In this document: piece by piece, positions 9,401 to 53,509 of the stretch | How the letters are laid out: each line of letters starts with the position of its first letter | Numbering within the stretch: the first letter of the stretch is position 1 | Source of the DNA: a bacterium | GTDB taxonomy: Bacteria; Patescibacteriota; Patescibacteriia; Patescibacteriales; UBA12075 | Direction of reading: 5' to 3' | DNA length: 58,043 bases | Assembly: GCA_043820875.1 (NCBI GenBank) | Contig: JBDRDI010000039.1 | Span: 1 to 58,043, forward strand | Program-made: the position numbers and the translations under genes | The notes under the pieces: model-generated | Seen by the model: only the letters and a program-made list of their open reading frames with translations | The model's database searches: none | What the model was told of the DNA's origin: nothing

Positions 9401-12400
9401 GCTCCGGAACAATTACAAGCAGCATCTTGTTCGGCTGCGGTGGAACCAGCGTCGGCGCAACCAGTACAATATCCAAAAGACGCACCATCGGAAGAAGTGC
9501 CACTGCCACATTCACCGGAACATTCAAGAAGCGGGCAACAATCTCTCGCGCTTTGGCCGACTTCACAACAGCATTCGCAAGAAGCGCCTTTTGTTTTTTG
9601 GCATTCGCCATTACTTTGACAAATTGAATTATCCGGACAAATATCACTGCTAAATACACAATCCCAATCGCCGTCATTGTCATAGTCTTGACAGGTAGAA
9701 CCTGTCGCGCATGCAGAACAAACCGCACCGACTTTTTGGCATCTACTCTTGCCACCACTATCTTTTATCCAGTCCGTGGGACAGGACGCGTAAGTGTCAA
9801 AATATAATTTTCCGGCTTCACAATAAGCTATTACCGGATCATTAAAAACATCTTGCGCGGCTTCGCGACAAGTTGAATCTGCGACCACACATCTATCAAT
9901 TGTATCGCGATAAACGCATCCTTGTGTAGAACAAAAAGAACAAGAATAATCACAAGTGACAAGAGTCTCGTAGACGCCTCCTTGGCTGGCTGAACAGCGC
10001 CCCGGAGAATTCGGACAATAGACAGAGTCAAAACATTGTGTGGAACCAAGACCTGAACAAGATTCGGTATTCGCCGGAACACATACACATGAATCATTAC
10101 ATTCATAATCAGCAGGACAGACACTATTGTCTTGGACGCAAAAATTTTGACTGCTGGAGCAAGATTCCGGAAGATCAACTCCAAGACCGGTGGAAAATCC
10201 CCACTCAAAAACCGAACTTTTAATATCCGGATAACAACCGACGCTGATATCGTCAACGCAATAACCTGCGTTATAAGTACCGACGGGGCAACAGCTTTGA
10301 ACTCCGCAAGCATCATCTGGGCTGGAAGCTTCCAGACAAGAACCGATTGAAAAATTCAAACCGTTACTTTCTGAGGCAGGGCTTCCTTTGGAAACTTTTA
10401 CCGGACCGGTGATTGCGGTCGCTGGAACCGTGGTGCGCGCTTCATCTGCTCCGGATTCAGCATCTTCCTCCCAGTTTAAAATCGCGCTTCCTGATTGTCT
10501 TTCATTTCTATAAAACAATATCGCGCTATCGTTTGTGGCCGCGTCAAAATATTCGCCGATAAAATTTATTTCACTGTCAGGCACGCCCATAACCGGACTG
10601 ATTTTACATAATCCGGGCGCAAGAAGCGCGGAACTATCATATAAAAAGAGAGGCGAAATTCCGCCGGTTCGTACAATATTTTTGGTATCCGCTTCTTTTC
10701 CATTTGCATCCACTTTTATATAAAAATTACTATCTGTAAAATCTGACAAATCAGGAGCCTTAACTATAATTTGATTATTGGTCCATAAAGATGCGGAACA
10801 AGCAGCTGGAAATTCGTAATCTGCTTCTTTTTCATTCCCTTCCGCATTAAAGAAAAACACTCTATATGTTTCCCCAATTTGAGAAGGAGAAGCATTGCCA
10901 AAATTACCGCCGGATATCGTCACATATTGACCGTCTCTCCCTTGTACAGGACTGAAAGAGATTATATACGGCCCGGAATAAGCGCTTTTTATTACCTCAA
11001 AATTAAAATAATTACTAAATGCTCCATTACCATTTAAAATAAAAGTTGTGGCTCGGCCGGAATTCAAATTCGGAACTACCGCGTTTATTCTTTCAGGTGA
11101 AACGAACACGGAATTAAACGCCGGAACAAAAGATGATGTATTTCCGAAGTTGGCTTGCGCGCTATTATTAAAACGCAAACCATGATATGTTATCGCGGTA
11201 TCGGCTGATCCGGATAATGGGTCCAAAGCGCAAATTCCCGGTCGGGCTATTTGATTTATTATAAAATTAAATATCGATCCGCGATTATCCATATTGGAAT
11301 CGGAACGTCCATCGACAGAAACTATTATTTTTGCCGAATTCACAAGATCAGGATTGACATTGGCAGGCACCACGACCAAAATCTGATTATCAGACCAATT
11401 GTTTTGGCAATTTGAATTTGTGGCTTGCGGATTCAATGCCAACTCACCGTTTATTGTTACGGTTCCGGCGGAATTTCCAAAAAATCTGCCATTGATTGTG
11501 ATCATACCTCCTGGAGAAGAATTCGCGGTTTCCAAATCACAGTTATTACTTTGGCAATCACCATCCTCTGCGCAAAAAGAATTTGTTGGATTACCGGCGC
11601 CGTCGCGACAGAATCCTCCTGCCGGCGATACGGAATCAATGCGTGGCGCGTTTTGACAAAGACAACAATTGTTTACTCCTGTCGCGTAATTCGCGGCCTG
11701 GCAATCGGCTGTTGAAGCAGAACATTCGCACAAGTCAGAGGCACAACGATTATTATTTAAATTACAATCAATTTGATTACTTGCGCAATCATCGTTCAAA
11801 CTGTTCCCGCAGGCCGCGCCGGAGCAAGAAGCGCAATCTTGCCCACCGCAATCTATACCGGTTTCGTTTTCATCCAATATGTTATTGCAACAATGCGCCG
11901 CTCTTAAAACAAAATTTTTCTCCGCTGACGCGGTATTGCTGTCCAAATCGGAAGCGGTGGCATTAATCGCGTAAGATCGACCAGCGGAATAGGCTGGCTC
12001 TTCCGGCTGCCAAATAATTGTTCCCAATCCTTCCGTCCACCAATTGATTCCTTGTCCGCAAGGAGAAGAATCACAACCAATAATAAATGGCGGGGTATCT
12101 TGAAATGGTGAAGGAATTTGCAATGCTCCGCCATTCTCTTCTTCTTTAAATTCAACTTGGGAAACTCCGCTGTCGTCATTGGCGCTAAACCCAAGCTGGT
12201 TCGGCGCACCAAGACAAAGTTGACTATCAGACAATATGGCCACTGACGGTTTGGCGCAATCAATTTGATCGCTGGTGTTAAACGTTAAATCACAAGAATT
12301 ATTTTCGTTAAGTCCGCAGGAAAGTGTTGTCCCGCCGACATCCAATATTCCTCCTTGGCCGTTTAACGCGTTAACATTTATGGTTTGGCCGGGTTCAAAA

Positions 12401-13062
12401 CAACGAGTTGCTCCACAATCATTTTGAGGACAATCGCCACTGGGAATAAATTCAATATATCGTCCGGCAATATTATATGTTCCGTTCACATTACCGTTTT
12501 CGTCACTTAAAACAAATGAAGAAGCGGAAACCGTGTCAGCATCAACATCACGAGAAAAATAATATCTAACCACTGTGTTTATGGGGTAAATGCCGTTACC
12601 CGGGCTTTTTGAAAGAACGGAAAATGATTCACCGGATTGCGTTATTTCTCCGCCATCGCCGGGATCTGTCCCGTCGGAAGAAGTTCCCCCCAAGGAGCTT
12701 TGCATTTGATTCAATACCCACGAGACTATCAAAAACGCGCTCATAATAATAACTAAACCGATGACTGCATTGATTAAAGTTTTTTTGGCCGTTTCCATTT
12801 TTTGCGAGTCGCCGGCGCTGGTCATCCAAAGAAAGCCTCCATATAATATAATAATCGTCGCTATAATTCCTAAAAATGTCAAAGCGATGCGCACAATATT
12901 AACGGCCACGACTCGCGGATCAGAATCCCCGCCTCCCAAGCCAACATTATTGGCGTAATTCAATCCGAAATCGCTTGATTGCGCAAAAGCAAAATTTACA
13001 GCCCCAAAAACAGCAACTGCGATTATAGCAAAAATAAAAATTTTACTTGCTTTTTTAAACAT
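6484..13062 (-). CDS. Giant (2192 aa) Cys-rich surface protein: signal peptide, TrbC/VirB2-like pilin domain, Ig-like and IPT/TIG domains, disulfide-rich repeats, C-terminal FN3 repeats
   Basis: Two-TM pilin-like block LGIIATIIILYGGFLWMTSAGD...AKKTLINAVIGLVII; Big_5-like PINTVVRYYFSRDVD and RNAIISVEFDQKMD; IPT-like PRIDSVSP, ITINGRFFG, VTISGGNFG; FN3-like WDSVPDADSYVIYYG, LDWS and YYFRIKSFN. Confidence 0.75.
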   Translation of the reverse strand: MFKKASKIFIFAIIAVAVFGAVNFAFAQSSDFGLNYANNVGLGGGDSDPRVVAVNIVRIALTFLGIIATIIILYGGFLWMTSAGDSQKMETAKKTLINAVIGLVIIMSAFLIVSWVLNQMQSSLGGTSSDGTDPGDGGEITQSGESFSVLSKSPGNGIYPINTVVRYYFSRDVDADTVSASSFVLSDENGNVNGTYNIAGRYIEFIPSGDCPQNDCGATRCFEPGQTINVNALNGQGGILDVGGTTLSCGLNENNSCDLTFNTSDQIDCAKPSVAILSDSQLCLGAPNQLGFSANDDSGVSQVEFKEEENGGALQIPSPFQDTPPFIIGCDSSPCGQGINWWTEGLGTIIWQPEEPAYSAGRSYAINATASDLDSNTASAEKNFVLRAAHCCNNILDENETGIDCGGQDCASCSGAACGNSLNDDCASNQIDCNLNNNRCASDLCECSASTADCQAANYATGVNNCCLCQNAPRIDSVSPAGGFCRDGAGNPTNSFCAEDGDCQSNNCDLETANSSPGGMITINGRFFGNSAGTVTINGELALNPQATNSNCQNNWSDNQILVVVPANVNPDLVNSAKIIVSVDGRSDSNMDNRGSIFNFIINQIARPGICALDPLSGSADTAITYHGLRFNNSAQANFGNTSSFVPAFNSVFVSPERINAVVPNLNSGRATTFILNGNGAFSNYFNFEVIKSAYSGPYIISFSPVQGRDGQYVTISGGNFGNASPSQIGETYRVFFFNAEGNEKEADYEFPAACSASLWTNNQIIVKAPDLSDFTDSNFYIKVDANGKEADTKNIVRTGGISPLFLYDSSALLAPGLCKISPVMGVPDSEINFIGEYFDAATNDSAILFYRNERQSGSAILNWEEDAESGADEARTTVPATAITGPVKVSKGSPASESNGLNFSIGSCLEASSPDDACGVQSCCPVGTYNAGYCVDDISVGCYPDIKSSVFEWGFSTGLGVDLPESCSSSQNFCVQDNSVCPADYECNDSCVCVPANTESCSGLGSTQCFDSVYCPNSPGRCSASQGGVYETLVTCDYSCSFCSTQGCVYRDTIDRCVVADSTCREAAQDVFNDPVIAYCEAGKLYFDTYASCPTDWIKDSGGKSRCQKVGAVCSACATGSTCQDYDNDGDWDCVFSSDICPDNSICQSNGECQKTKGASCECCCEVGQSARDCCPLLECSGECGSGTSSDGASFGYCTGCADAGSTAAEQDAACNCSGASGKYCDTSSADYPQGVCRDCGALSTSNECSTHSQYCCVDNMKNSACRGVDEDESSIPGGNGLAYCPYYDCTQTDPITCENSPDISGTYKSLDICSSKCGNGGSIGGQSCFDESTGNCGLLCSNPYSCIGESGCAGGNCVPNDTTCSCCCDTSASPDSCTNINSILDCREAEPCAGGQRGLCCGCSDDSQCAPSGEAELAGCGRDTCCRARPNVVSVAPTETAPTDNAVNICRNAIISVEFDQKMDVSSFSGNIIIVGDYGADLCPDDTTYISLNDLNKNKNKFIIANIFSRLAKSIYSIFPIESAVAYETPDPTHNFCAITGATGGYNNAAEHGILEFKPNKVLDGDRRYYVIVKGDKNLDSSEGVKNYWGIGMNGNDTETMSGAQFSRAHISMFTTMPEQARNNGVCEISRVEVNPSSYLFQTTTNDLDEIDTNPNDSTFDTARDRDKLFIAQSLSANGQKLVSLPGVYSWIWDWSIGNEDIVKDISPAVLVGSNRVLIQAVDGITDWRTSVSATANVVTSSASFTGQADVYVFICDNPWPPIDSDGFWSPWKDASGNCNPPSASCGNTNYEIYYCRDAGVTGTYDDLPAILSGSTLIKGKSEWRCRGGFYNNELCADESSCAVPNVPTTNISCVSGHCQTDLIDGGTCAYDADCQKKGICDGVFKEAYYFRESVPVIGDLILYNVSDSQTEEGDNAAFWWDSVPDADSYVIYYGKASGSYSDNISVSETKNHSEFSPYYIFSLEKGATYYFVISAKNSITGAESELSSEISVKIQDTASPVIVNGNLFKAVPGDKNIDLDWSETKDATLAANNDLAGFRVFWAEKSATDYANKSDIGLEWGAIISDVKNGVIYKVAIAAYDTSGNFSEKAELVNLAPFATPSNPSAKAGTEDGTIDLNWTLPAEGVAGVIIESRTASSQEWTRETIDHRVETYSVANLNSGITYYFRIKSFNQANIESAPTGEVSVAAK

Positions 13063-13121: not shown

Positions 13122-15833
13122 TTATAAGCAGTTCCCTTCTGCGTCCAAATCCGCCGTACTGCTCCCGTCACAACAAGAAGGCGAAGCGGAATTGGCAGAG
13201 CAACCAGGGCCGGCACTTGGCTTGTAACAATTTTGATAAACATCACGCACGCCCGAACCGATTTGTGTTCTGACACCGGTATTGCCACCAAAATCCGTAT
13301 GTCTGATTTCCACAGCGGTTTTGTCCAGCTCACTGCTTGCTCCGGAATCACTGTTTATTCCCTCGCTTGCTATCCAATAACCAACTGCCAAATTATTTAA
13401 ATTCCAAAGATTTATATTTTTATGCCTGACTACTGTCCCATTGTTAACGCTTACTTCCCTAATGCCTGTTGCCAAGCTGGAATTCATCATTACTTTGTTG
13501 AATTGAATTTTTACCGGTTCAATTTGTGAGACTCCGTTTTGCCCATAATCCGGACTTATTGATTCAATTTGTGGAGACGATGCGTCCAATACGTTACTAA
13601 TAAAAAACGACCAGCTGTAATTATCGCCACTCCCCGTCCAGTTATTTTCATTATAATATTCAACCGGACCTTCGGCTTCTTCGCTTCTGTCGCCGTCAAG
13701 AGAGTTTCTGGCCGCATCCATAATACCGTCAAAATTCAATGACGACATCGGATAATTTTTTTGAAGAGAGTCACTGCGACAATGTCCGCTTTCACAAACG
13801 TTATATGGAGAGAAAGGCAGACAATCATTATTATCGGAACAAGCTATCAAGTTGGCCGCGTTTAATTCAACACGCAAATTGCTGTTTTCCGGCAAACAAT
13901 AAATTTCCTCGCCACAGCCGTTGACCCCGCAAATATTACTGGAAATAAATTCAACTGTTTTATATACATTTGATATAACAAATTTTCCGGATAAATAATC
14001 ATTCCTGCAAACTCCGGCCGAACAATCATATGAAAGACAATCGCTATTTGTTGAGCATGCCTCGCCGGCGTGAACAACGCCGGAATTATTATTAACCACT
14101 CTGATACGATCGCTTACTTCGTCCGCGCCACCTGACACGACAGAAGGCATAATCGCTTCATTAAAATTAATCTGGATTACGGAATTTTTTGGCTTATCGC
14201 TTTTGTCGCGCACGCTCACTGAAACGCCTTGGTCTTTACCATCGCTTAAATATCCGGTCAAAGGAACAATAAGACCGGAAGAATTTGATGACACTTTAAT
14301 ATGGTTGCCAACGGCTCCGGCAATCTTGGCGATTATGGTAATCATGTTTCCGGAATAGTTGGCCGATACACTTGGATTGGCCGGCGAATCAGATGTTCCG
14401 TTGATAACATTGGAAATATTTTGAGCAGTAATTGCCGTTGTTCCTCCCAAAGGAATTTGCCCAACAGCAAGATTTGTTGCTCCAGCCGGAACAAAAGAAT
14501 AAATAATTGAACCGACTGTCAAAATATCAGACTCGCGAAACGGAGTCACGGCAATGCTCCAACTTTGTCCGGCTGTATATTCTTGCGGCAAGCGCAATGT
14601 AAAAAAAGAAGAAAAAACAACCGTATTATTATTTCCAACAGTAGACGCGCCCAACGGACCGGAACTTCCGCTCAGTGAAATTGTCTTTGCGTCTTGCTCC
14701 ACAGCCAAGGTTAAATTACCGGATTGATTATGTCTTTCATTGATTGATATTATTTCCAAACCTGACACTGGAGCGTTTATACTGGCTGTCGCTTTGACCA
14801 AGGCAAGTGGCTGACTATTGACCGTAATGTTGCCCGAAGCCCTCGCGGAGGCGCTGGCCGTAAAAACATCTTGTTCATTATCCGGAGGTGGAAAAATTCC
14901 ACTTTGCAAAACTTGTGGTGGATCCAAATCAATTCTATTGCTTACTTCAAAACTCCAGAGAAGATAATCCAAACTGCAATGAGCGAATATTCCTTGTCCA
15001 CCGGAATTTTCAACCGCGTTGGATATATAAACCGAATACCAAATATATTCCGAAGGCGAACCCAAATAATTGGCCGGAATAAATACAAAAGTACGATTAT
15101 CATTACTTACTGCTATTAAATCGGCTACCAAACTGTTACAAACCGTGCCGTTAACACAACTATCTGTTTCGTTTCTATAAAATATTTTCACACTTGGATC
15201 GTCTCCGCCCGTGATTGCCCGGTCGCAATTCGCGCCAACGCAATCACAATATGTTCCATTATTATTGGTATCTTGGCAAACTGTTTGAGGATTAATGTCT
15301 TCTTTAAATGTCACTATGATTGAAGTATTTCTGGCCACTTCTTTTTGATTCACTTCCGGATAAACCGTTTCCACCGAGCAAGAGCCAATTGCTCCATATC
15401 CGGACACTGTCCCGGGCTGATTGATTCCACCTTGTTGCCGTTGTCCATCCGGACCCAAATTATTCAATACCCAACTGACAATCAAAAACGCGCACATAAT
15501 AATAATCATGCCAATAATTGCATTGATTAAAGTTTGTTTGGCTTTTCTTATTTTTTCTTCATCTCCTTGACTGGTCATCCAAAGCCAGCCGGCATACATA
15601 ATAATTACTACCGCAATAATTCCTAAAAACGTCAAAATAAGCTGCAAAATTCTCACGGCCACTACTCGCGGGTCAGAATCTCCTCCACCTAATCCCACAT
15701 TATTGGCATAATTCAATCCAAAATCAGTATTTTGCGCCATTGCAAAATGAGCCGTGGCAAAAAGAGACACGGCGACTATAAATAAAATTAAAATTTTTGT
15801 TTTTATGCTATTCTTTTTCACCATAAAAAACAC
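13122..15833 (-). CDS. 903-aa surface protein: signal peptide, TrbC/VirB2-like pilin domain, Ig-like (Big_5-type) domains and Cys-rich inserts
   Basis: Pilin block FLGIIAVVIIMYAGWLWMTSQGD.EKIRKAKQTLINAIIG; YPEVNQKEVARNTSIIVTFKEDI, NSVIQINFNEAI, SPDYGQNGVSQIEPVKIQFNKVM. The start may be a few codons downstream (MVKKN). Confidence 0.75.
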   Translation of the reverse strand: MFFMVKKNSIKTKILILFIVAVSLFATAHFAMAQNTDFGLNYANNVGLGGGDSDPRVVAVRILQLILTFLGIIAVVIIMYAGWLWMTSQGDEEKIRKAKQTLINAIIGMIIIMCAFLIVSWVLNNLGPDGQRQQGGINQPGTVSGYGAIGSCSVETVYPEVNQKEVARNTSIIVTFKEDINPQTVCQDTNNNGTYCDCVGANCDRAITGGDDPSVKIFYRNETDSCVNGTVCNSLVADLIAVSNDNRTFVFIPANYLGSPSEYIWYSVYISNAVENSGGQGIFAHCSLDYLLWSFEVSNRIDLDPPQVLQSGIFPPPDNEQDVFTASASARASGNITVNSQPLALVKATASINAPVSGLEIISINERHNQSGNLTLAVEQDAKTISLSGSSGPLGASTVGNNNTVVFSSFFTLRLPQEYTAGQSWSIAVTPFRESDILTVGSIIYSFVPAGATNLAVGQIPLGGTTAITAQNISNVINGTSDSPANPSVSANYSGNMITIIAKIAGAVGNHIKVSSNSSGLIVPLTGYLSDGKDQGVSVSVRDKSDKPKNSVIQINFNEAIMPSVVSGGADEVSDRIRVVNNNSGVVHAGEACSTNSDCLSYDCSAGVCRNDYLSGKFVISNVYKTVEFISSNICGVNGCGEEIYCLPENSNLRVELNAANLIACSDNNDCLPFSPYNVCESGHCRSDSLQKNYPMSSLNFDGIMDAARNSLDGDRSEEAEGPVEYYNENNWTGSGDNYSWSFFISNVLDASSPQIESISPDYGQNGVSQIEPVKIQFNKVMMNSSLATGIREVSVNNGTVVRHKNINLWNLNNLAVGYWIASEGINSDSGASSELDKTAVEIRHTDFGGNTGVRTQIGSGVRDVYQNCYKPSAGPGCSANSASPSCCDGSSTADLDAEGNCL

Positions 15834-46960: not shown

Positions 46961-49900
46961 TTACTTCGCGCATCTAAACCCTACCGTGCTCGTCGCTTCT
47001 GTTGGGCTATAACTCAGATTCAAATCGTATAATCCGATTTCACCGCGGACAAATCCTCTTAAGTTATTGCTATTATCCCCGTTCGACAAGCTCAGGGCAG
47101 GCGACTTAATCTTACCAATACCGTTGGCTGAATTGTAATAATATGGAGGCGCGATGTTTAAGCCTTTGTAATCCGTGATGTTGGAATATTCTTGCCAGTC
47201 GTTATCCATTGGCGCGACAATTCCGGACTTGGTAATTGTTTGGTCTGTCCACTCGCCCACTCCGCCGATGATATTATAAATCATATTACCGTTGGAAAGG
47301 GTGGAATAAATATTGGCTGTAATATATGAGTAAATATTTACGTCTGTCGCATCATAAACCGCCGCGGCTTGCCAAAGCTGTAATCCATCTTTTGCCACAT
47401 CAGCATCATTTTCCGCGGTTCTAATAATATTTTCCGCGATGGTGAGCCATTCATTCTCGCTCAAAAGGTGGTATCCTTCACCCACGCCAAGACAAGCCAG
47501 AGCGGCTTCTCCTTGCGACACGTTAACCCATGATATACTAGTCGTTGCTCCATCTCCAGCTCGCGCCTCGTCCGATTGCGCGCAGAATCCCGGCATGGTT
47601 CCGTATTTCGCGGAACCCGGCACCCATACATATCCATCATCGCATACAGATTCAAACGCGCCGGCAACGATTGTTCCTTCAACTCCCATATCACCCATTG
47701 TTTCATCCACCGCGTTATCCAATTCGCTACCACAAACTCCGCCCGAACAAACCATGATCCTGCCGTCAACGAGCATCTCTCCCACAACGGTCACTTGACC
47801 GGTTTGAGCGATATTAACGATTGAAATTCCTCCGGCTTGAAAATCAGCCACTGAAGCGTCTCCGCCTTGATTCACAACCAAAGCGGTTTTGTTTGTGCTT
47901 GTGGCAGTGATAATTTCCACAATAGCAACGTCTTCTTCAATCTCCACGGACGAACTGGCTGTATCCTCAATGTTCGTAATCTTTATATTTCCTTCCGCTG
48001 TTTCTTTAATTACTTCCGGCAGAGATGAACTGGCCAAATCAATTGAAGGGATAAATCCTGCTTGCCACGCCTCTAATATTCCCATTCTTGCATTCAAGTT
48101 ATTTGTACTATTTTCTAAAACGCCAACTCTGCTGATCAAGTCATCAGCGCTTGCGGATATTTGTACAAGTTGTCCATTCACAGCGTCAAATCTCACAGAC
48201 AAATCTTGATCAAACAAAGCAATCTGTTCTTCAGCAATATCTTTTATGTCTTGATCCAGATTCAAATTATTAACCGCGTTGGAAATAAGGATCTGCACTT
48301 CGTCTTCAATCTCCATGCTGGCGATGCGCTCTGTGATCTGAGCTTCCACAGCTTCCACAGTCAGACTCTTGTTTCTTCTGGATATCAGAACTTTTATCTC
48401 GCCAATTCCGCCTGAAAAAGATTCCAAAGCAACGCCCACGGTCGGATCTCCGACACCGGCTTTCATCACATATCCCGGAGTGCTGGACGCGCTGGTCAAC
48501 GAATCACCCGGCCTAATCTCGCCATTTTCAGACGACACCTTGGCAGGAACCTGACCAAGCATTCCAACAATTACATACTTATCATTGTCAACATATTCTT
48601 CTTTTCTATTACCAATAATCGCCGGCTTGGTAGAAACAATGCCCATCACATTTGAATCCGCTCCCCGATCGCATCTCTTCACCATATTGTTTTCCGTAAT
48701 ATCCACACAAACCACCTCTCCTGATTTCAAATCCGCTTCTCTTGCGCGAAAATATTCCGCGTAATCAGCGCCGGCGTTGTTAAACGCCACATCGGAAATC
48801 GCTTCGCCATTGCCCATCACTTTGAATCCGATACCTGTACTGGTGGAAACCGCGAATAAAGTATCAGTATTATCGCCGTCTGATTGATAAATATTTAATT
48901 TAGCAATTGGCGTCGTCGTCCCAATCCCCACATACCCCGCGTTCATATCTCCATAAATCGTATCACCGATGTTTAAGAATTTGTATGAAGCAGAGGAGGT
49001 GGCGTCAACGCCGTAGCCAATAATAATATTGTTTGAGCCTGTAGTAATATTATCTCCTGCCTGATAGCCCAATAATAAATTATTAGCGCCGGTGGTGTTG
49101 GCAAGGCCTGATTGATAGCCTACAAAAGTATTATTATCTGAACCTGTTTCCACGGCATAACCGCTCTTGTATCCGACGTAGACGCCATTTTGATTGGAAT
49201 AAGTGGCTGAACCTTGTGCAGATAAAGTACCAATAGCGATAGTAGAAGTGGCGGAAGTGTTGAAATAAAGAGACTGGCGTCCCACAGCTGAATTCTGTGA
49301 GCCGGTGGTGTTATAACGGAGAGACCAAGGTCCCAAAGCTGTATTATTTGTGCCGGTGGTGTTGGAGTAGAGAGAATGATATCCCAAAGCTGTATTATTT
49401 GAGCCGGTAGTGTTGGAATAGAGAGCTTGATAACCAATGCCGGTATTCCAATCCGAAGAAGTAGCCACATATCCCGCCTGATAACCGATGAAAGTATTAT
49501 ACAACCCATCAGCCAAAACATCTTTGCCCGCACCTTCGCCCACAAATATTCCTTTATTCGTGCTGGAAGCATATAAAATAGTATTGCCGGCTTGTTTGTA
49601 TCCGGAATATTGATTAACATTCACAAACCCATCCACATCCAAAGCATATTGAGGCGTCGTCGTCCCAATCCCCACATTCCCCACCTCATTAACATACAAC
49701 ATAGACGCGCCGGTGGAAGAAGCGATGTTCAACGGAGAAACGCCAGCTGAAGCTTGGACGGAGAGTTTGGAGAGGGGGGAGGTGGTGCCGATGCCGACAT
49801 TGCTATCAAAAGAAGCCACTCCATCAGCGTGAAATGTTCCTTGAACATCTAATTTATAATCAGGTGTAGTATCACTCCCTATTCCAACATTTCCATTTGA

Positions 49901-52900
49901 TGTATCTACGACCATTAACTTAGCAGTAAGATTATTTTGAAATTCAATTAAATTACCATAGCTCCTAAAATAGAAATTATTAGTTGTTCCTTCTAATCCA
50001 ACTATTCCTTTAATATTTCCAGAACCAGCCCCACGACTAAATAAAATAGCAGCATAACCATCAGTATTAGCATTATCAATAACAATAGCTGGATAGCCAC
50101 CATACGATGAGCTATTAGTGCTTTTTGAAATATGCAACATTACATCTGGACTCTCCGTCCCAATCCCCACATACCCATTAGTAGCCATATAAAGAGAAGA
50201 AGTAGCTGTTGGATTATTGCTGGCATCGCCGATGTAAATGTTGCCTGTGGCGAGGGTCATGTCAGAAAGAGAATCAAAAAGCCCCAAGGTGGAAGTCGCC
50301 ACCCAATTATATCCTGTTCCGGTAGTCTGCAAAACCATACCGTTCGTGCCGGCAGAATAAGTATTGTCATACAGCATGCCGGTTGCCATCATGTTGCCGG
50401 CGACTGTGAAGGTTGTGAAGGGGGTGGTTGTGCCGATGCCGATGTTGCCTGTACCTGCCCATGTCAATACTGGCGTTCCCAACGCTGTTTGCGAAGCTCC
50501 GTAACCAAGCGACCATTTATCCGCGGCATCATTTTGAATTAATCCATAATAAGATCCCGCGCTGTTCATAACAAACCCTGGTCCACTATTATTGTTGGCA
50601 TAGAACGGTACCCCAACTGATTGAGGACCTTCGCCATTGATTCTAAATCTTTCTGTATTGGCAGGTTTAAAAACGATAGCGTTGACGAGGCTGTTATAAT
50701 ACGTAGAGAAAGTCAAAGTCGTATATCCAGAATCATCATAAACGATATCCGCGTATTCTGTCGGTCCTGAAATACCGCCCAGTCTGATTGTTCCATTAAC
50801 TGAACCATAAGGACCATAATTAGACGCTATAACTCCTGCCACATCCAACTTATATTGTGGGCTGGTCGTCCCAATCCCCACATACCCCGCGTTCATATCT
50901 CCATAAATCGTATCACCGATGTTTAAGAATTTGTATGAAGCAGTGGAAGAAGCATCAACGTCATAGCCAATAATAATATTATTTGAACCTGTAGTAATAT
51001 TATCCCCTGCCTGATAGCCCAATAACAAATTATTAGCTCCGGTGGTGTTGGCAAGTCCTGATTGATAACCGAGGAAGGTATTGTTATCTGAACCTGTTTG
51101 GACAGCATAACCGCTTCGGTATCCGATATAGACGCCATTTTGGTTGGAATAATTGGCTGAACCTTGCGCGGCATAAGCTCCGATAGCGACAGAGGAAGTG
51201 GCGGAAATGTTGTAATAAAGAGAATAATATCCCATAGCTGAATTATCTGAGCCGGTAGTGTTGAAAGGAAGCGAAGCATATCCCACAGCTAAATTACTCG
51301 AGCCGGTGGTGTTGGAGTAAAGAGATGACCGTCCCACAGCTGAATTATTTGAGCCGGTGGTGTTGAAGCGGAGAGAATCATTTCCTATAGCTGAATTACT
51401 TGAGCCGGTGGTGTTGGTGTAGAGAGAATTATATCCCATAGCCGTATTATAATCCCCCTCGGTGTTGGCAACGAGAGAATCCCTTCCCATAGCTGAGTTA
51501 CCTTTGCCGATGGTGTTGGCAAGAAGAGAGCTGACTCCCATAGCTGAATTATTTGAGCCGGTAGTGTTGGAACTAAGAGAATAACTTCCCATAGCTAAAT
51601 TAAATGAGCCGGTGGTGTTAGTGTGGAGAGAATTATATCCTATAGCTGAGTTATTCGAGCCGGTGGTGTTGTTATATCCCGCCTGATAACCAATAAAAGT
51701 ATTATACAGCCCATCAGCCAAAACATCTTTTCCAGCATCTTCACCCACAAATGTTCCTTTATTCGTGCTGGAAGCATATAAAATAGTATTGCCGGCTTGT
51801 TTGTATCCGGAATATTGATTTGTATTTATAAAACCACCCACGTCTAATTTATATGACGGAGAAATGTTGCCGATGCCCACATTCCCATTTGTATCCATAT
51901 AAATAGAAGAAGTCGCAATCGGATTATTGCTGGCATCGCCGATGTAGATGTTGCCTGTTGCCAATGTCATGTCAGAGAGGGAATCATAAAGCCCCAGAGT
52001 GGAAGTCGCCACCCAATTATATCCTGTGCCGGTAGTCTGCAAAATCATGCCGTTCGTGCCGGCAGAATAAGCATTGTCATACAACATTCCAGTTGCCATC
52101 ATGTTGCCGGCGACTGTGAAGTTGGTGAACGGGGTTGAGCTTCCCACTCCGAGATAGCCGTTGAAATTACCAGTGTTGAATGTTGAACTGCCACTGACTA
52201 TCAAATTTGTCGTTGACGCTTGCGTTGCGGCGGTTAATGTTCCTGTCCATAAGTCTGAAGCGACAGTAAGGTCGGTTGTTGAAGCATAATTTACGGTTAA
52301 TGCTCCATCTATCCTTGTATTCCCGTAAACATCGAGAGTGTAGGCTGGCGTGGTGGTGCCGATGCCGACATTCCCGTTCGGCATCATAAATATTGTGGAA
52401 GTGCCGGAAAGAGCTGTTCCGTCCGCGGCGTAATAAGCAATTTGACCCGCGTCTCCCAATTCAACCAAACCGGAAGAAGACGCCAAACTATCTATGTTAA
52501 TCCACGAACCGGACAAGTCTTTATATTGCATCGCGCCTGCCGAATCCCTAAAGCCATATCCGGACGTGCCAGTGTCATAGCCAAAATTCAAATATCTGTC
52601 AGCACCTTCCAGTAAAGCATCTCCGTACACGACAAAGTTGGTTAACGGTGTTGAAGTGCCGACGCCCACATAGCCACTATTTAATATAATCATGGAGCTG
52701 GTTGCCCCGCTTAAAAATTCCGCGATATTTCCGGATCCGTTTTGAGTGACAGTCAACGCCGTATCGCTTGAACTTGTCGCTATATCAACAATATTATTAA
52801 AGCTCCATGCGCCAGTGACGGTTTCGTCTTCCGAAAGAGTCGCGAATTCACCTTCTCTTTTGCCGCCGACTTCCATGGCGTAAAAAGCGTACGGGAAAGA

Positions 52901-53509
52901 AGTCGTGAGTTTTCTGGGTTGCATCAATTCGCCATTGAATGTTATTTCCAAATACATTGAGTCGCTGAAATCGGTGGTTGAAATATCCTCCACCGAGCCC
53001 AAATTCACATCCACAATTCCGCCTTCAATGCGCGGGCGGTTGTTAATGCTGTCTCCAACTGTCCAGGTCTCTGAGGTGCTGGCTACAATGATTGTATTAT
53101 TATCGTTGCCATATCCAACAATCAAAGCGTAATCCGACGCAGTGGAATCGGTAAGATATTGTCCGACCCTGAGTGTTGTTGTCGCAAGTCCGGCGGAATA
53201 AGTATATTGAATACCGTCAGAAACACTATCCACGGCACTGATTGTTCCGGAGAACATATTAGCCGCATTCAAAGTTTCCGTCCAAATGGCAGTACCGCTG
53301 GTTGATGAAGCATATAAGCTGAAAACAAAGTCATAATTTCCATCCGCGATTTCCCCGCCGGCCGTAGTAGTCACTTTGCCGGAAAAATTAAGCATGAACG
53401 GAACGGTCTGCGCGCGAGCCGGAAGAGGACAAATTTGCACAGCAAAAATCGCCGTCAACACGATTGGCGCCAGTACAAATTTTGCAATTGTCCTAATTAA
53501 CTTTTCCAT
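46961..53509 (-). CDS. Giant (2182 aa) secreted tail-fibre/trimeric-adhesin-like protein with GIGTT repeats, YadA-like repeats, a Peptidase_G2-like chaperone and a C-terminal C-type-lectin (FGE-like) domain
   Basis: Signal peptide; many VGIGTT(S/T)P boxes; NS(A/T)xGxxSLxxNTTG repeats; AGADYAEYF...GEVVCVD...GIVSTKP...GQVPAKV; C-terminus WVNVSQGEAALAC...HLLSENEW...GGVGEW...VGFRCAK. Confidence 0.78.
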   Translation of the reverse strand: MEKLIRTIAKFVLAPIVLTAIFAVQICPLPARAQTVPFMLNFSGKVTTTAGGEIADGNYDFVFSLYASSTSGTAIWTETLNAANMFSGTISAVDSVSDGIQYTYSAGLATTTLRVGQYLTDSTASDYALIVGYGNDNNTIIVASTSETWTVGDSINNRPRIEGGIVDVNLGSVEDISTTDFSDSMYLEITFNGELMQPRKLTTSFPYAFYAMEVGGKREGEFATLSEDETVTGAWSFNNIVDIATSSSDTALTVTQNGSGNIAEFLSGATSSMIILNSGYVGVGTSTPLTNFVVYGDALLEGADRYLNFGYDTGTSGYGFRDSAGAMQYKDLSGSWINIDSLASSSGLVELGDAGQIAYYAADGTALSGTSTIFMMPNGNVGIGTTTPAYTLDVYGNTRIDGALTVNYASTTDLTVASDLWTGTLTAATQASTTNLIVSGSSTFNTGNFNGYLGVGSSTPFTNFTVAGNMMATGMLYDNAYSAGTNGMILQTTGTGYNWVATSTLGLYDSLSDMTLATGNIYIGDASNNPIATSSIYMDTNGNVGIGNISPSYKLDVGGFINTNQYSGYKQAGNTILYASSTNKGTFVGEDAGKDVLADGLYNTFIGYQAGYNNTTGSNNSAIGYNSLHTNTTGSFNLAMGSYSLSSNTTGSNNSAMGVSSLLANTIGKGNSAMGRDSLVANTEGDYNTAMGYNSLYTNTTGSSNSAIGNDSLRFNTTGSNNSAVGRSSLYSNTTGSSNLAVGYASLPFNTTGSDNSAMGYYSLYYNISATSSVAIGAYAAQGSANYSNQNGVYIGYRSGYAVQTGSDNNTFLGYQSGLANTTGANNLLLGYQAGDNITTGSNNIIIGYDVDASSTASYKFLNIGDTIYGDMNAGYVGIGTTSPQYKLDVAGVIASNYGPYGSVNGTIRLGGISGPTEYADIVYDDSGYTTLTFSTYYNSLVNAIVFKPANTERFRINGEGPQSVGVPFYANNNSGPGFVMNSAGSYYGLIQNDAADKWSLGYGASQTALGTPVLTWAGTGNIGIGTTTPFTTFTVAGNMMATGMLYDNTYSAGTNGMVLQTTGTGYNWVATSTLGLFDSLSDMTLATGNIYIGDASNNPTATSSLYMATNGYVGIGTESPDVMLHISKSTNSSSYGGYPAIVIDNANTDGYAAILFSRGAGSGNIKGIVGLEGTTNNFYFRSYGNLIEFQNNLTAKLMVVDTSNGNVGIGSDTTPDYKLDVQGTFHADGVASFDSNVGIGTTSPLSKLSVQASAGVSPLNIASSTGASMLYVNEVGNVGIGTTTPQYALDVDGFVNVNQYSGYKQAGNTILYASSTNKGIFVGEGAGKDVLADGLYNTFIGYQAGYVATSSDWNTGIGYQALYSNTTGSNNTALGYHSLYSNTTGTNNTALGPWSLRYNTTGSQNSAVGRQSLYFNTSATSTIAIGTLSAQGSATYSNQNGVYVGYKSGYAVETGSDNNTFVGYQSGLANTTGANNLLLGYQAGDNITTGSNNIIIGYGVDATSSASYKFLNIGDTIYGDMNAGYVGIGTTTPIAKLNIYQSDGDNTDTLFAVSTSTGIGFKVMGNGEAISDVAFNNAGADYAEYFRAREADLKSGEVVCVDITENNMVKRCDRGADSNVMGIVSTKPAIIGNRKEEYVDNDKYVIVGMLGQVPAKVSSENGEIRPGDSLTSASSTPGYVMKAGVGDPTVGVALESFSGGIGEIKVLISRRNKSLTVEAVEAQITERIASMEIEDEVQILISNAVNNLNLDQDIKDIAEEQIALFDQDLSVRFDAVNGQLVQISASADDLISRVGVLENSTNNLNARMGILEAWQAGFIPSIDLASSSLPEVIKETAEGNIKITNIEDTASSSVEIEEDVAIVEIITATSTNKTALVVNQGGDASVADFQAGGISIVNIAQTGQVTVVGEMLVDGRIMVCSGGVCGSELDNAVDETMGDMGVEGTIVAGAFESVCDDGYVWVPGSAKYGTMPGFCAQSDEARAGDGATTSISWVNVSQGEAALACLGVGEGYHLLSENEWLTIAENIIRTAENDADVAKDGLQLWQAAAVYDATDVNIYSYITANIYSTLSNGNMIYNIIGGVGEWTDQTITKSGIVAPMDNDWQEYSNITDYKGLNIAPPYYYNSANGIGKIKSPALSLSNGDNSNNLRGFVRGEIGLYDLNLSYSPTEATSTVGFRCAK

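What the first reader, a model, noticed from the sequence alone, without database searches (positions are those of the whole stretch)
46961..48800. Internal autocleaving-chaperone domain followed by about 500 more residues ending in a lectin fold
Seen: AGADYAEYF...IVSTKP...GQVPAKV...GDSLTS, then a coiled-coil-like stretch, a beta segment and an FGE/CLec domain. Established: DYAE-type (Peptidase_G2, phi29 gp12-like) chaperones sit at the C-terminus of trimeric phage spikes and cleave themselves off. Inference: one gene yields two products, a trimeric fibre and a released or non-covalently held lectin-tipped trimer, i.e. a phage-spike assembly strategy reused for a cellular adhesin.
Basis: partly seen in the sequence, partly recalled or inferred. 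Interest (0 to 1): 0.68.

Follow-up and report, generated by a model that had tools for sequence, protein, structure and literature searches.

The report
Phage self-cutting chaperone inside bacterial fibre
A 2182-residue secreted fibre protein of an ultrasmall (Patescibacteria/CPR) bacterium carries the self-cleaving folding module of phage phi29 tail spikes 600 residues before its end, followed by a helical stalk and a lectin-like head. The layout is common in this bacterial group and suggests the fibre is cut in two after assembly, but no cleavage has been shown.

Summary
The gene at 46961-53509 (-) encodes a 2182-aa protein with ADYAEYF at aa 1581-1587. The surrounding domain is a genuine Peptidase_G2 (phi29 gp12 D4-type) intramolecular chaperone. 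Support comes from Pfam (24.8 bits, cut-off 25), profile hits to solved G2 chaperones, and an AF2 model that matches gp12 (3SUC/3GQH) and viral preneck-appendage models. The motif aligns with gp12 S691|DFAE, so the predicted scissile bond is A1581|D1582. D-Y-A-E is invariant in two sets of 20 homologues each.

About 470 residues follow the domain: a conserved helix, a heptad stretch, one fibre repeat unit and a weakly supported FGE/C-type-lectin-like head.

The layout is not peculiar to this gene. Of the 150 closest cluster representatives, 144 have at least 100 residues after the domain, and 104 of 301 sampled Patescibacteria genomes carry it. In some relatives the unrelated S74 chaperone sits before the same tail.

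Cleavage into two products is plausible but untested. Internal self-cleaving chaperones (MYRF) and cellular phage-like fibres (Bdellovibrio MAT) are already known, so this is a new variant of a known kind.

The parts
46961..53509 (-). Whole gene: 2182-aa secreted giant fibre protein (stop codon included)
   Evidence: ORF list and translation. The C-terminal 623 aa have 177 homologues, all giant proteins and mostly from Patescibacteria.
53408..53509 (-). N-terminal Sec-type signal peptide, aa 1-34 (basic n-region, hydrophobic core, A-R-A|Q)
   Evidence: Read directly from the sequence; no predictor was run. Homologues P0007, P0011, P0012 and P0013 share this start and the conserved domain that follows it.
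48767..48901 (-). Last fibre strands before the cleavage motif, aa 1537-1581 (LFAVSTSTG..FKV..G....AFNNAGA)
   Evidence: Strands E14-20, E23-29 and E34-36 in the AF2 model. Profile positions 9-45 also align with chlorovirus P22 and Dpo31 upstream of their DYAE.
48755..48766 (-). D1582-Y-A-E1585, the D-x-x-E motif of Peptidase_G2. The predicted scissile bond is A1581|D1582.
   Evidence: Invariant in alignments A3 and A4 and at least 90% conserved in 80 sequences. hhalign places ADYAEYF on phi29 gp12 S691-DFAEYF. Mature gp12* ends at residue 691 (PMC6542822).
48374..48766 (-). G2-type intramolecular chaperone core (beta-rich, beta-tulip type), aa 1582-1712
   Evidence: pLDDT is 86-97 over most of it. 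Foldseek hits 3SUC, 3GQH and phage decoration (beta-tulip) proteins and BFVD preneck appendage proteins. Pfam PF11962 scores 24.8 bits.
48233..48373 (-). Conserved helix that always accompanies the G2 core, aa 1713-1759 (NKSLTVE..RIA.MEIEDEV)
   Evidence: AF2 helix 180-212 and 216-223 in model numbering. It co-occurs with the G2 core in every homologue mapped. Nearly invariant residues are listed.
48065..48232 (-). Variable helical, coiled-coil-like stalk, aa 1760-1815
   Evidence: Pro-free, with an a/d heptad pattern at 1770-1812 seen by eye. Weak similarity to trimeric coiled-coil constructs 6h9m and 5apz (E=0.04-1.1). The sequence is poorly conserved among homologues. The periodicity test was not significant.
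47933..48064 (-). Variable Ser/Glu-rich linker, aa 1816-1859
   Evidence: No conserved columns. Absent from the blastp module maps of homologues.
47654..47932 (-). Fibre repeat unit followed by a conserved Cys-containing neck, aa 1860-1952 (TALVVNQ.G..VADFQ...DGRIMVCSGGVCG)
   Evidence: Similar to aa 240-283 of the same protein. Travels with the lectin-like head, including in proteins that have no G2 domain. AF2 could not model it as a monomer (pLDDT 31-39).
46964..47653 (-). C-terminal FGE-sulfatase / C-type-lectin-like head ending GFRCAK, aa 1953-2182
   Evidence: Pfam PF03781 E=0.013, below threshold. Profile against PDB: EgtB-IV 0.004, TaqVP 5vf4, SUMF2. Foldseek hits are weak (E>=0.1) but are to CLec/FGE folds. 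PF03781 is precomputed on P0037, P0043 and P0117, and NCBI names P0008 'FGE family'.

Best explanation
The gene encodes a Sec-exported, trimeric surface fibre of a Patescibacteria cell, a candidate host- or surface-attachment fibre. Its body is built from GxVGIGTTxP fibre units and YadA-head-like NTxG repeats.

At aa 1582-1759 it carries a catalytically intact G2-type intramolecular chaperone: beta-tulip-type (gp12 D4-like) core plus helix, as in phi29 gp12 D4. By homology, this domain brings the three chains into register and lets the upstream beta-fibre fold. It then most probably hydrolyses the A1581|D1582 bond.

Cleavage would give two trimeric products. The first is the fibre (aa ~35-1581). 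The second is a 601-residue piece made of the chaperone trimer as base, a helical stalk, one fibre unit and an FGE/C-type-lectin-like head.

I lean towards the cut piece staying docked on the fibre tip as its lectin head, at least for a time, rather than being discarded.

Shown here: homology, fold, motif conservation, internal position, and recurrence of the layout. Inferred: export, trimer state, cleavage, the fate of the C-terminal piece, and carbohydrate binding.
For: Homology and fold of the G2 chaperone.

The motif aligns with gp12 S691|D692..E695, and mature gp12* ends at residue 691 (PMC6542822). The depositors' isolated Dpo31 chaperone domain starts at DYAEYFE.

D, Y, A and E are invariant in two sets of 20 homologues each, at 25-48% identity over the full-length alignments (45-59% within the C-terminal cassette). 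In contrast, extra G2-like copies in P0046, P0059 and P0064 keep the beta core but have lost D-x-x-E, and C-terminal copies in P0048, P0050 and P0055 keep D[LV]AE. The motif can therefore decay, yet is held fixed in this position.

The tail is not random junk. The G2 core plus helix is followed by about 400 residues in 144 of the 150 closest cluster representatives. The heads vary (FGE-like, or a weakly H-lectin-like domain) behind a variable stalk.

In P0051, P0052, P0036 and P0038 the unrelated self-cleaving chaperone S74 occupies the same slot just upstream of the same beta-unit plus FGE tail. It scores above the Pfam cut-off and its SDxxxK dyad is intact.

Phi29 and K1F spikes aggregate without their chaperone domains and are cut after folding (PMC3357383; PMC4690869). 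A cellular fibre, Bd3182, does self-cleave at its S74 domain (PMC10769870).
Against: There is no direct evidence of cleavage for this protein or any CPR homologue.

The single-sequence Pfam score is just under the gathering cut-off and covers only a quarter of the model. The hhalign probability to gp12 is low (15.9%).

Conservation of DYAE could reflect a structural role.

Auto-chaperone domains that stay in the mature protein exist, for example the P22 tailspike (PMC3357383).

Discarding or loosening 600 residues per chain looks costly for a 0.9-Mb genome.

From my own recollection of the Xiang et al. 2009 abstract (paper not held), release of the cut gp12 domain needs ATP, which an exported protein would lack.

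The trimer state was not modelled. The lectin fold is weakly supported.
Confidence: 0.5

Rival explanations
1. No cleavage. The G2-like domain serves only as a built-in trimerisation and registration knot in the middle of one continuous chain. The mature fibre is a single 2150-residue polypeptide per subunit with a covalently attached distal lectin head.
For: The domain is internal in nearly all close relatives. Several proteins carry two copies in one chain (P0039, P0046, P0048, P0050), and some copies have lost D-x-x-E, so a purely structural use of the fold exists in this family. The P22 tailspike keeps its auto-chaperone domain (PMC3357383). Beta-tulip domains are general trimer-interface modules (bioRxiv 10.1101/216911). 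A covalent lectin tip is the simplest adhesin design.
Against: D-Y-A-E is invariant in the copy at this position, whereas it decays in clearly secondary copies. The equivalent slot can be filled by S74 with an intact Ser-Lys dyad. It is hard to see why two unrelated peptidase motifs would both be kept if nothing is cut.
Confidence: 0.33
2. Cleaved and discarded. The whole 601-residue C-terminal piece is a disposable assembly cap, as in phages. The lectin-like head acts only before or during assembly, for example by holding the nascent fibre at the producer's own glycan layer, in the way MYRF is held by its C-terminal anchor. It is then shed or left behind.
For: In phi29, K1F and T5 the chaperone leaves the mature fibre (PMC4690869). 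In MYRF the part after the chaperone is the anchor and the N-terminal trimer is the released, active product (PMC3742443). An earlier scan note reached a similar reading for an S74 relative (e1-1029404).
Against: The heads are diversified and swapped behind the chaperone, which is the pattern expected of a receptor-binding tip rather than a constant assembly aid. The protein has an N-terminal signal peptide and a conserved N-terminal domain, the end that is cell-proximal in the analogous MAT fibres.
Confidence: 0.1
3. The gene is a prophage or phage tail-fibre gene rather than a cellular adhesin.
For: PHROG hits to tail spike and virion structural proteins on aa 647-866. The chaperone is phage-type. 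A RAYT/IS200-like gene and repeats lie nearby (note e1-5250449).
Against: No phage structural, packaging or lysis genes are among the neighbours. These are an FN3 protein, a TSP3/PT protein, Wzy_C, an M16 peptidase and a UvrD-PDDEXK helicase. tblastn of the domain against 50,697 phage records finds nothing. About a third of sampled Patescibacteria genomes carry such genes, often several.
Confidence: 0.03
4. The C-terminal GFRCAK lectin domain is the variable protein of a diversity-generating retroelement, and the upstream chaperone is incidental.
For: CLec/FGE domains ending GFRC are typical DGR targets. The weak structural hits include Mtd and TaqVP. The genome has two reverse-transcriptase genes.
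Against: No template repeat for the last 240 nt exists anywhere in the 92.6%-complete assembly; only matches of 19-25 nt were found. Both RT genes are on other contigs.
Confidence: 0.04

Closest known systems
Bacillus phage phi29 gp12 (pre-neck appendage) D4 auto-chaperone; MEROPS G2, Pfam PF11962; PDB 3SUC, 3GQH
   Same: Same fold by Foldseek. The same (S/A)|D-[FY]-A-E-Y-F motif lies at the junction with the beta-fibre. It is preceded by a beta-rich fibre.
   Different: In gp12 the domain is the last 163 residues and the protein is cytoplasmic. Here about 470 residues follow it (helix, stalk, fibre unit, lectin-like head) and the protein has a signal peptide. Sequence identity is only about 15-20%.
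Tailspike/depolymerase Dpo31 with separately crystallised 'chaperon domain D4' (PDB 28lx, 28nb), and chlorovirus PBCV-1 fibre protein P22 (8h2i)
   Same: Best sequence-profile matches (E=1e-3 and 7e-6). They share the motif ADYAEYFE / GADYAEMMEW and the conserved strands before it.
   Different: In both, the domain lies at or near the C-terminal end of a virion protein. No lectin tail follows.
MYRF (myelin regulatory factor) ICA domain, eukaryotes
   Same: A cellular protein with a phage-type self-cleaving trimerising chaperone placed internally. A long functional C-terminal part follows, and one gene gives two products (PMC3742443, PMC8326128).
   Different: MYRF uses the unrelated S74 (Ser-Lys) chaperone. 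Its C-terminal part is a membrane anchor, and its N-terminal product is a transcription factor.
Bdellovibrio bacteriovorus MAT (mosaic adhesive trimer) fibres, e.g. Bd3182, Bd2740 (Caulton et al. 2024, PMC10769870)
   Same: Cellular, signal-peptide-bearing, phage-like trimeric fibres with a conserved N-terminal domain and swappable adhesive tips, including a C-type lectin fold. Self-cleavage of the chaperone was shown for Bd3182.
   Different: In MATs the chaperone is S74, it is terminal, and it is an alternative to an adhesive tip. Here a G2 chaperone and a lectin-like tip occur in series in one chain. Homology of the N-terminal domains was not tested.
Salmonella phage P22 tailspike C-terminal auto-chaperone
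   Same: A trimerising C-terminal auto-chaperone that remains part of the mature protein (PMC3357383). This is the model for the uncleaved rival explanation.
   Different: No sequence or motif similarity, and no peptidase motif.
FGE-sulfatase / C-type-lectin fold ligand-binding domains (DGR variable proteins Mtd, TaqVP; EgtB C-domain)
   Same: Weak profile and fold matches, and the C-terminal GFRCA(K/R) ending.
   Different: No template repeat in the genome. The match is below Pfam threshold. No evidence for enzyme activity.

Membership tests
Peptidase_G2 (phi29 gp12-type intramolecular chaperone, PF11962) | Sequence match to the family model at the curated threshold | tested here: inconclusive
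   24.8 bits against a cut-off of 25, E=1.7e-5, profile positions 41-99 of 228 only. The whole protein gives no Pfam hit. Homologues P0027, P0030, P0048, P0061 and P0066 carry precomputed PF11962.
Peptidase_G2 (phi29 gp12-type intramolecular chaperone, PF11962) | Profile-level homology to experimentally studied G2 chaperones | tested here: met
   Profile A5 against PDB: 8h2i P22 at E=7e-6, Dpo31 28lx at E=1e-3, and its D4 chaperone 28nb at E=0.03.
Peptidase_G2 (phi29 gp12-type intramolecular chaperone, PF11962) | D-x-x-E catalytic motif directly after the scissile bond (gp12 S691|D692...E695) | tested here: met
   ADYAEYF aligns with SDFAEYF of gp12. Mature gp12* ends at residue 691. D1582 and E1585 are invariant in A3 and A4.
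Peptidase_G2 (phi29 gp12-type intramolecular chaperone, PF11962) | Beta-rich (tandem beta-tulip) fold of gp12 D4 | tested here: met
   AF2 pLDDT 79.8. Foldseek: 3SUC E=1.7e-4, 3GQH TM(target) 0.57, and decoration/beta-tulip proteins. BFVD preneck appendage proteins at E~1e-9, TM(target) 0.64.
Peptidase_G2 (phi29 gp12-type intramolecular chaperone, PF11962) | Position at the extreme C-terminus of the spike | tested here: not met
   601 residues follow D1582, and about 420 follow the end of the domain-plus-helix (aa 1760). The same holds for 144 of the 150 closest representatives.
Peptidase_G2 (phi29 gp12-type intramolecular chaperone, PF11962) | Autoproteolysis after trimerisation | not testable with these tools
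   Needs expression, mass spectrometry or proteomics.
FGE-sulfatase / C-type lectin fold (PF03781) | Match to the family model or fold | tested here: inconclusive
   Pfam E=0.013, 15.6 bits against a cut-off of 23.3. Profile against PDB: EgtB-IV E=0.004. The AF2 model is poor. Foldseek hits are E>=0.1 but are to CLec/FGE folds.
FGE-sulfatase / C-type lectin fold (PF03781) | Catalytic residues of formylglycine-generating enzymes | not tested
   Not examined. The domain is treated here as a binding fold only.
DGR variable protein | Template repeat near-identical to the C-terminal variable region, with an RT gene nearby | tested here: not met
   No match longer than 25 nt to nt 46961-47200 in the own genome. 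The two RT genes are on contigs C8 and C21, not in the window.
Peptidase_S74 / MYRF-type ICA | SDxxxK Ser-Lys dyad and PF13884 match | tested here: not met
   Absent from this protein. Present in relatives P0051, P0052, P0036 and P0038 at the equivalent position.
MAT-type cellular trimeric fibres (Bdellovibrio) | Signal peptide plus conserved beta-rich N-terminal domain, trimeric beta-fibre, swappable adhesive tip | tested here: inconclusive
   The signal peptide and a conserved N-terminal domain shared with P0007, P0011, P0012 and P0013 are seen by eye. Tips are swappable. Homology to the MAT N-domain and the trimer state were not tested.

The most novel reading that the evidence does not exclude
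Patescibacteria use phage-derived 'fold-then-cut' chaperones of two unrelated families (G2 and S74) interchangeably. They act as an in-line processing joint in giant surface fibres. Each fibre is exported as one chain, trimerised by the chaperone, and then cut. The result is a fibre carrying a non-covalently docked, exchangeable lectin-tipped module (chaperone base, stalk and head). The cut joint would then work as a designed break or release point, comparable to autoproteolysed GAIN/SEA modules of eukaryotic adhesion receptors. This would let the tiny cell let go of, or leave a tag on, its host. Proteins with two or more chaperone copies would be true polyproteins yielding several trimeric pieces.
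Probability: 0.3. Interest if true: 0.78.

Novelty: new variant of a known kind. Interest (0 to 1): 0.55.

Why it matters
How ultrasmall CPR/Patescibacteria recognise and hold on to their host cells is largely unknown. Their giant surface proteins are obvious candidates, but most have no annotation; whole-protein Pfam and NCBIfam searches on this one return nothing.

This work shows that a large subfamily shares a defined C-terminal cassette: self-cleaving chaperone, stalk and lectin-type head. The profile finds 10,775 cluster representatives at E<=1e-10, the domain occurs in about a third of sampled genomes of the phylum, and the closest 150 representatives show this layout. That gives a concrete, cheap experimental handle, with a predicted cleavage site, two point mutants and a soluble head domain for glycan or host-binding assays.

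If the cut occurs, it extends the MYRF principle (an internal phage chaperone makes two products from one gene) to bacteria and to the G2 family. It would also mean that gene-length 'giant proteins' of CPR are partly polyproteins.

If the cut does not occur, it shows a phage peptidase motif retained for a structural reason. That would also be informative for annotating the thousands of 'peptidase G2 domain-containing' proteins.

Tried and rejected
- Whole-protein Pfam and NCBIfam scans gave no hit. Only sub-segments gave signals.
- Single-sequence searches of both C-terminal halves against PDB sequences gave only weak coiled-coil hits or nothing.
- tblastn of the G2 domain against 50,697 phage records gave no match. 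The CPR subfamily therefore has no close phage relative in that collection.
- The AF2 model of the beta unit plus lectin tail was poor (pLDDT 53.7; the first 99 residues were unmodelled), so its fold search is only suggestive.
- A 3.5-residue hydrophobic periodicity test of aa 1713-1815 was not significant. 'Coiled coil' rests on the AF2 helix and on a heptad pattern seen by eye.
- The DGR idea was tested and rejected for this assembly: there is no template repeat, although two RT genes exist elsewhere.
- Pfam on seven alternative post-chaperone tails gave only a sub-threshold H_lectin hit (E=0.0085).
- The prophage origin was rejected from the gene neighbourhood.
- The key paper on gp12 (Xiang et al. 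2009, PMC2692858) is not held. The ATP-dependent release of the cut domain is therefore cited from memory only.
- Full-length alignments of 80 giants were too large to export, so smaller sets were used.
Full report
**1. What is there**

The finding lies in the 3' third of a single long ORF, 46961..53509 on the minus strand, encoding 2182 aa. The protein starts with a Sec-type signal peptide, read by eye (MEKLIRTIAKFVLAPIVLTAIFAVQICPLPARA|QT).

The body has a conserved N-terminal domain shared with several homologues. It then has many GxVGIGTTxP fibre units and two blocks of YadA-head-like NTxGxxN repeats. The repeats give the only PHROG hits, to tail spike and virion structural proteins.

Whole-protein Pfam and NCBIfam scans return nothing.

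The genome is a 0.92-Mb, 92.6%-complete assembly. The window also holds other giant surface proteins typical of Patescibacteria.

**2. Is the chaperone domain real?**

Yes. Four lines of evidence agree.

- Pfam on aa 1565-1819 gives Peptidase_G2 at E=1.7e-5 and 24.8 bits, a hair under the 25-bit cut-off and covering only the motif-proximal quarter of the model.
- A 26-sequence profile of aa 1537-1761 and its homologues (A5) hits three solved G2-type proteins. These are chlorovirus fibre protein P22 (8h2i, E=7e-6), tailspike Dpo31 (28lx, E=1e-3) and its separately crystallised 'chaperon domain D4' (28nb), whose native sequence starts at DYAEYFE.
- An AF2 model (pLDDT 79.8; 86-97 over the core) matches premature phi29 gp12 (3SUC, E=1.7e-4) and the released gp12 C-terminal fragment (3GQH, TM 0.57 on the target). 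It also matches phage decoration proteins. That is expected, because gp12 D4 is a tandem beta-tulip (bioRxiv 10.1101/216911). Against predicted viral structures the matches reach E=6e-11 and include 'preneck appendage protein' entries at TM 0.64.
- hhalign of the profile against gp12 aa 631-854 puts ADYAEYF on S691-DFAEYF. Mature gp12* ends at residue 691 (PMC6542822; see also PMC4690869).

The predicted scissile bond is therefore A1581|D1582, with E1585 in the place of gp12 E695.

**3. Conservation**

D1582, Y1583, A1584 and E1585 are invariant in two independent sets of 20 homologues, at 25-48% identity over the full-length alignments (45-59% within the C-terminal cassette). They are at least 90% conserved in 80 sequences.

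This is informative because the motif can decay. Secondary G2-like copies in P0046, P0059 and P0064 keep the beta core (GD.LT.SS.PG, GIALE) but read SGYAQMM, GSMNEED and NSIANQV at the motif. Truly C-terminal copies in P0048, P0050 and P0055 keep D[LV]AENY.

**4. What follows the domain**

- A strongly conserved helix (NKSLTVE..RIA.MEIEDEV, aa 1713-1759). AF2 predicts it as a helix, and it accompanies the core in every homologue mapped.
- A variable, Pro-free stretch with an a/d heptad pattern in aa 1770-1812. This was seen by eye; a crude periodicity test was not significant. There is weak similarity to trimeric coiled-coil constructs.
- A variable linker.
- One more fibre repeat unit with a conserved Cys neck (aa 1860-1952), which is similar to aa 240-283 of the same protein.
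- A 230-residue domain ending GFRCAK.

The FGE/C-type-lectin assignment of this last domain is the least secure element. Pfam gives E=0.013. The profile against PDB gives E=0.004 to the FGE-like domain of EgtB-IV, with TaqVP and SUMF2 below it. Foldseek gives E>=0.1 on a poor model, although nearly all hits are CLec/FGE folds. Some homologues carry precomputed PF03781 or an NCBI 'FGE family' name.

No DGR template repeat for this domain exists in the assembly, although two RT genes lie on other contigs.

**5. How general is the layout?**

Very general. The 623-residue C-terminal cassette has 177 homologues. About 30 are full-length at 45-59% identity, attached to quite different bodies: FG-GAP, NosD/beta-helix, LVIVD, DUF5011 and intein-containing.

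An exhaustive profile search of 1.84 billion cluster representatives finds 24,379 proteins at E<=1e-3, 10,775 at E<=1e-10 and 640 at E<=1e-30. Among the best 150, 144 have at least 100 residues after the domain-plus-helix, with a median of about 395.

In a sample of 301 genomes of the phylum, 104 carry the domain. It often occurs two to four times, and several times within one giant ORF. The own genome has only this one copy.

**6. The modules are combinatorial**

- G2 plus helix occurs with other tails. Examples are a weakly H-lectin-like domain followed by Pro/Thr-rich and Cys-containing repeats.
- Two G2 copies occur in one chain (P0039, P0046, P0048, P0050). P0048, P0050 and P0055 read as fibre, G2, about 1000 residues, then a terminal G2.
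- The beta-unit plus FGE tail occurs without G2. In four such proteins (P0051, P0052, P0036, P0038) the slot directly upstream of the same tail is filled by the unrelated S74 chaperone. It scores above the Pfam cut-off and its S-D-x-x-x-K dyad is intact.

Two non-homologous self-cleaving trimerisation chaperones in the same position before the same tail is the strongest comparative argument available here. It suggests that what is selected in that position is the chaperone/cleavage function, not a particular fold.

**7. Mechanism proposed**

- Export through Sec. Inferred from the signal peptide.
- The G2 domain and its helix bring three chains into register and template folding of the upstream beta-fibre. 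This is inferred by homology: phi29 and K1F spikes aggregate without their chaperone domains (PMC3357383).
- Hydrolysis of A1581|D1582 once the trimer is formed. Inferred from motif alignment and conservation.
- The products are a fibre trimer and a 601-residue trimer consisting of chaperone base, helical stalk, fibre unit and lectin-like head.

Whether the second product stays docked or leaves cannot be decided here. I lean towards docking for three reasons. The heads are diversified like receptor-binding tips. The N-terminus is the probable cell-proximal end, as in MAT fibres. And release of cut gp12 D4 is, as I recall from the Xiang et al. 2009 abstract (paper not held), ATP-dependent, and ATP is not available outside the cell.

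I put the whole cleavage model at about 0.5. The uncleaved, purely structural reading is at about 0.33; its precedents are the P22 tailspike and the motif-less extra copies. A disposable cap or anchor is at about 0.1. Phage origin and DGR-target readings are a few per cent each. The neighbours are FN3, TSP3/PT, Wzy_C, M16 peptidase and UvrD-PDDEXK genes, with no phage genes, and there is no match in phage records.

**8. Comparison with what is known**

The domain works like, and by sequence and fold belongs with, the G2 chaperones of phi29 gp12, Dpo31 and chlorovirus fibres. It fails one customary feature, the terminal position.

Internal placement with a long functional C-terminal part is known from MYRF, but with the S74 family and in eukaryotes (PMC3742443).

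Cellular use of phage-type trimeric fibres with a self-cleaving chaperone is known from Bdellovibrio MAT proteins. There the S74 domain is terminal and is an alternative to adhesive tips such as a C-type lectin (PMC10769870). Here, chaperone and lectin-like tip are in series.

Homology of gp12 D4 to bacterial adhesins was already remarked on by Rossmann and colleagues, as quoted in 10.1101/216911. NCBI names some of these proteins 'peptidase G2 autoproteolytic cleavage domain-containing protein'.

I found no paper describing the internal G2-stalk-lectin cassette of Patescibacteria. Earlier notes of this scan report the same layout in other genomes. I treated these as leads and re-tested the G2/S74 interchange and the generality here.

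**9. Verdict**

This is a new variant of a known kind and is moderately interesting. Its main value is that it gives a precise, cheap experiment on an otherwise unannotated and very large class of CPR surface proteins.

Noticed in passing
homologues P0016, P0020, P0048, P0050: Several giant fibre genes of this family are interrupted by inteins: Hint/Intein_splicing Pfam hits, and ...VYDIEVEGTHNFVA...HNT junctions placed directly before a GNxGIGT fibre unit. Inteins in surface-fibre genes are unusual.
   Followed up: no
homologues P0046 aa 1620-1775, P0059, P0064: Secondary G2-like beta-core copies lack the D-x-x-E motif. P0048, P0050 and P0055 end in a diverged terminal G2 with D[LV]AENY followed by a short coiled coil. 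The family therefore contains motif-bearing and motif-less versions, and fibre-G2-body-G2 chains.
   Followed up: partly
homologues P0044, P0047, P0049, P0053, P0057 post-chaperone tails: Alternative tails behind the same G2 plus helix. They consist of a variable coiled coil, a domain ending ..GF.I.....L.FDWIALAV (sub-threshold H_lectin, E=0.0085), and then Pro/Thr-rich spacers with repeated GCTD..A.NYN..A..DDGSC.Y units of unknown function.
   Followed up: partly
homologues P0040, P0041, P0042: The same beta-unit plus FGE tail is preceded by neither G2 nor S74. Instead there is a conserved segment ...NSYVGDLIFANNFRFTEA...ALFLQNQNGENIMSFDENG with no Pfam match. This may be a third kind of junction module.
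   Followed up: no
own genome, G000:C8:33844-34521 and G000:C21:16194-16802 (loci L021, L022): Two reverse-transcriptase genes (RVT_1, 84-85 bits, frames of 375 and 348 aa) in a 0.92-Mb genome. They may be DGR RTs, but neither has a template matching this gene's C-terminus.
   Followed up: partly
window 47079-47101: A stretch of about 23 nt inside the lectin-domain coding region recurs at 88-96% identity on contigs C34 (twice), C58, C4 and C20 of the same genome. The cause is unknown; it could be a shared protein motif or a short repeat.
   Followed up: no
window 6484-13062 and 13122-15833 (minus strand): Two adjacent giant proteins (2192 and 903 aa) share an N-terminal segment (NYANNVGLGGGDSDPRVVAV... 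plus two TM helices) that resembles the pilin-like heads common in CPR. It is fused to very long Cys-rich and FN3-like extracellular parts.
   Followed up: no
window 49000-52200 (aa ~470-545 vs ~1040-1115, and ~560-880 vs ~1295-1520 of the fibre protein): The fibre body contains a large internal duplication: MMATGMLYDN.YSAGTNGM.LQTTGTGYNWVATSTLGL.DSLSDMTLATGNIYIGDASNNP and the YadA-head-like repeat block each occur twice. This agrees with scan note e1-5250454.
   Followed up: no
window 42343-42894 (minus strand): A 183-aa Y1 transposase (IS200-like, RAYT-type) gene lies between the M16 peptidase and the UvrD-PDDEXK helicase genes. This agrees with the REP/RAYT notes on this window.
   Followed up: no
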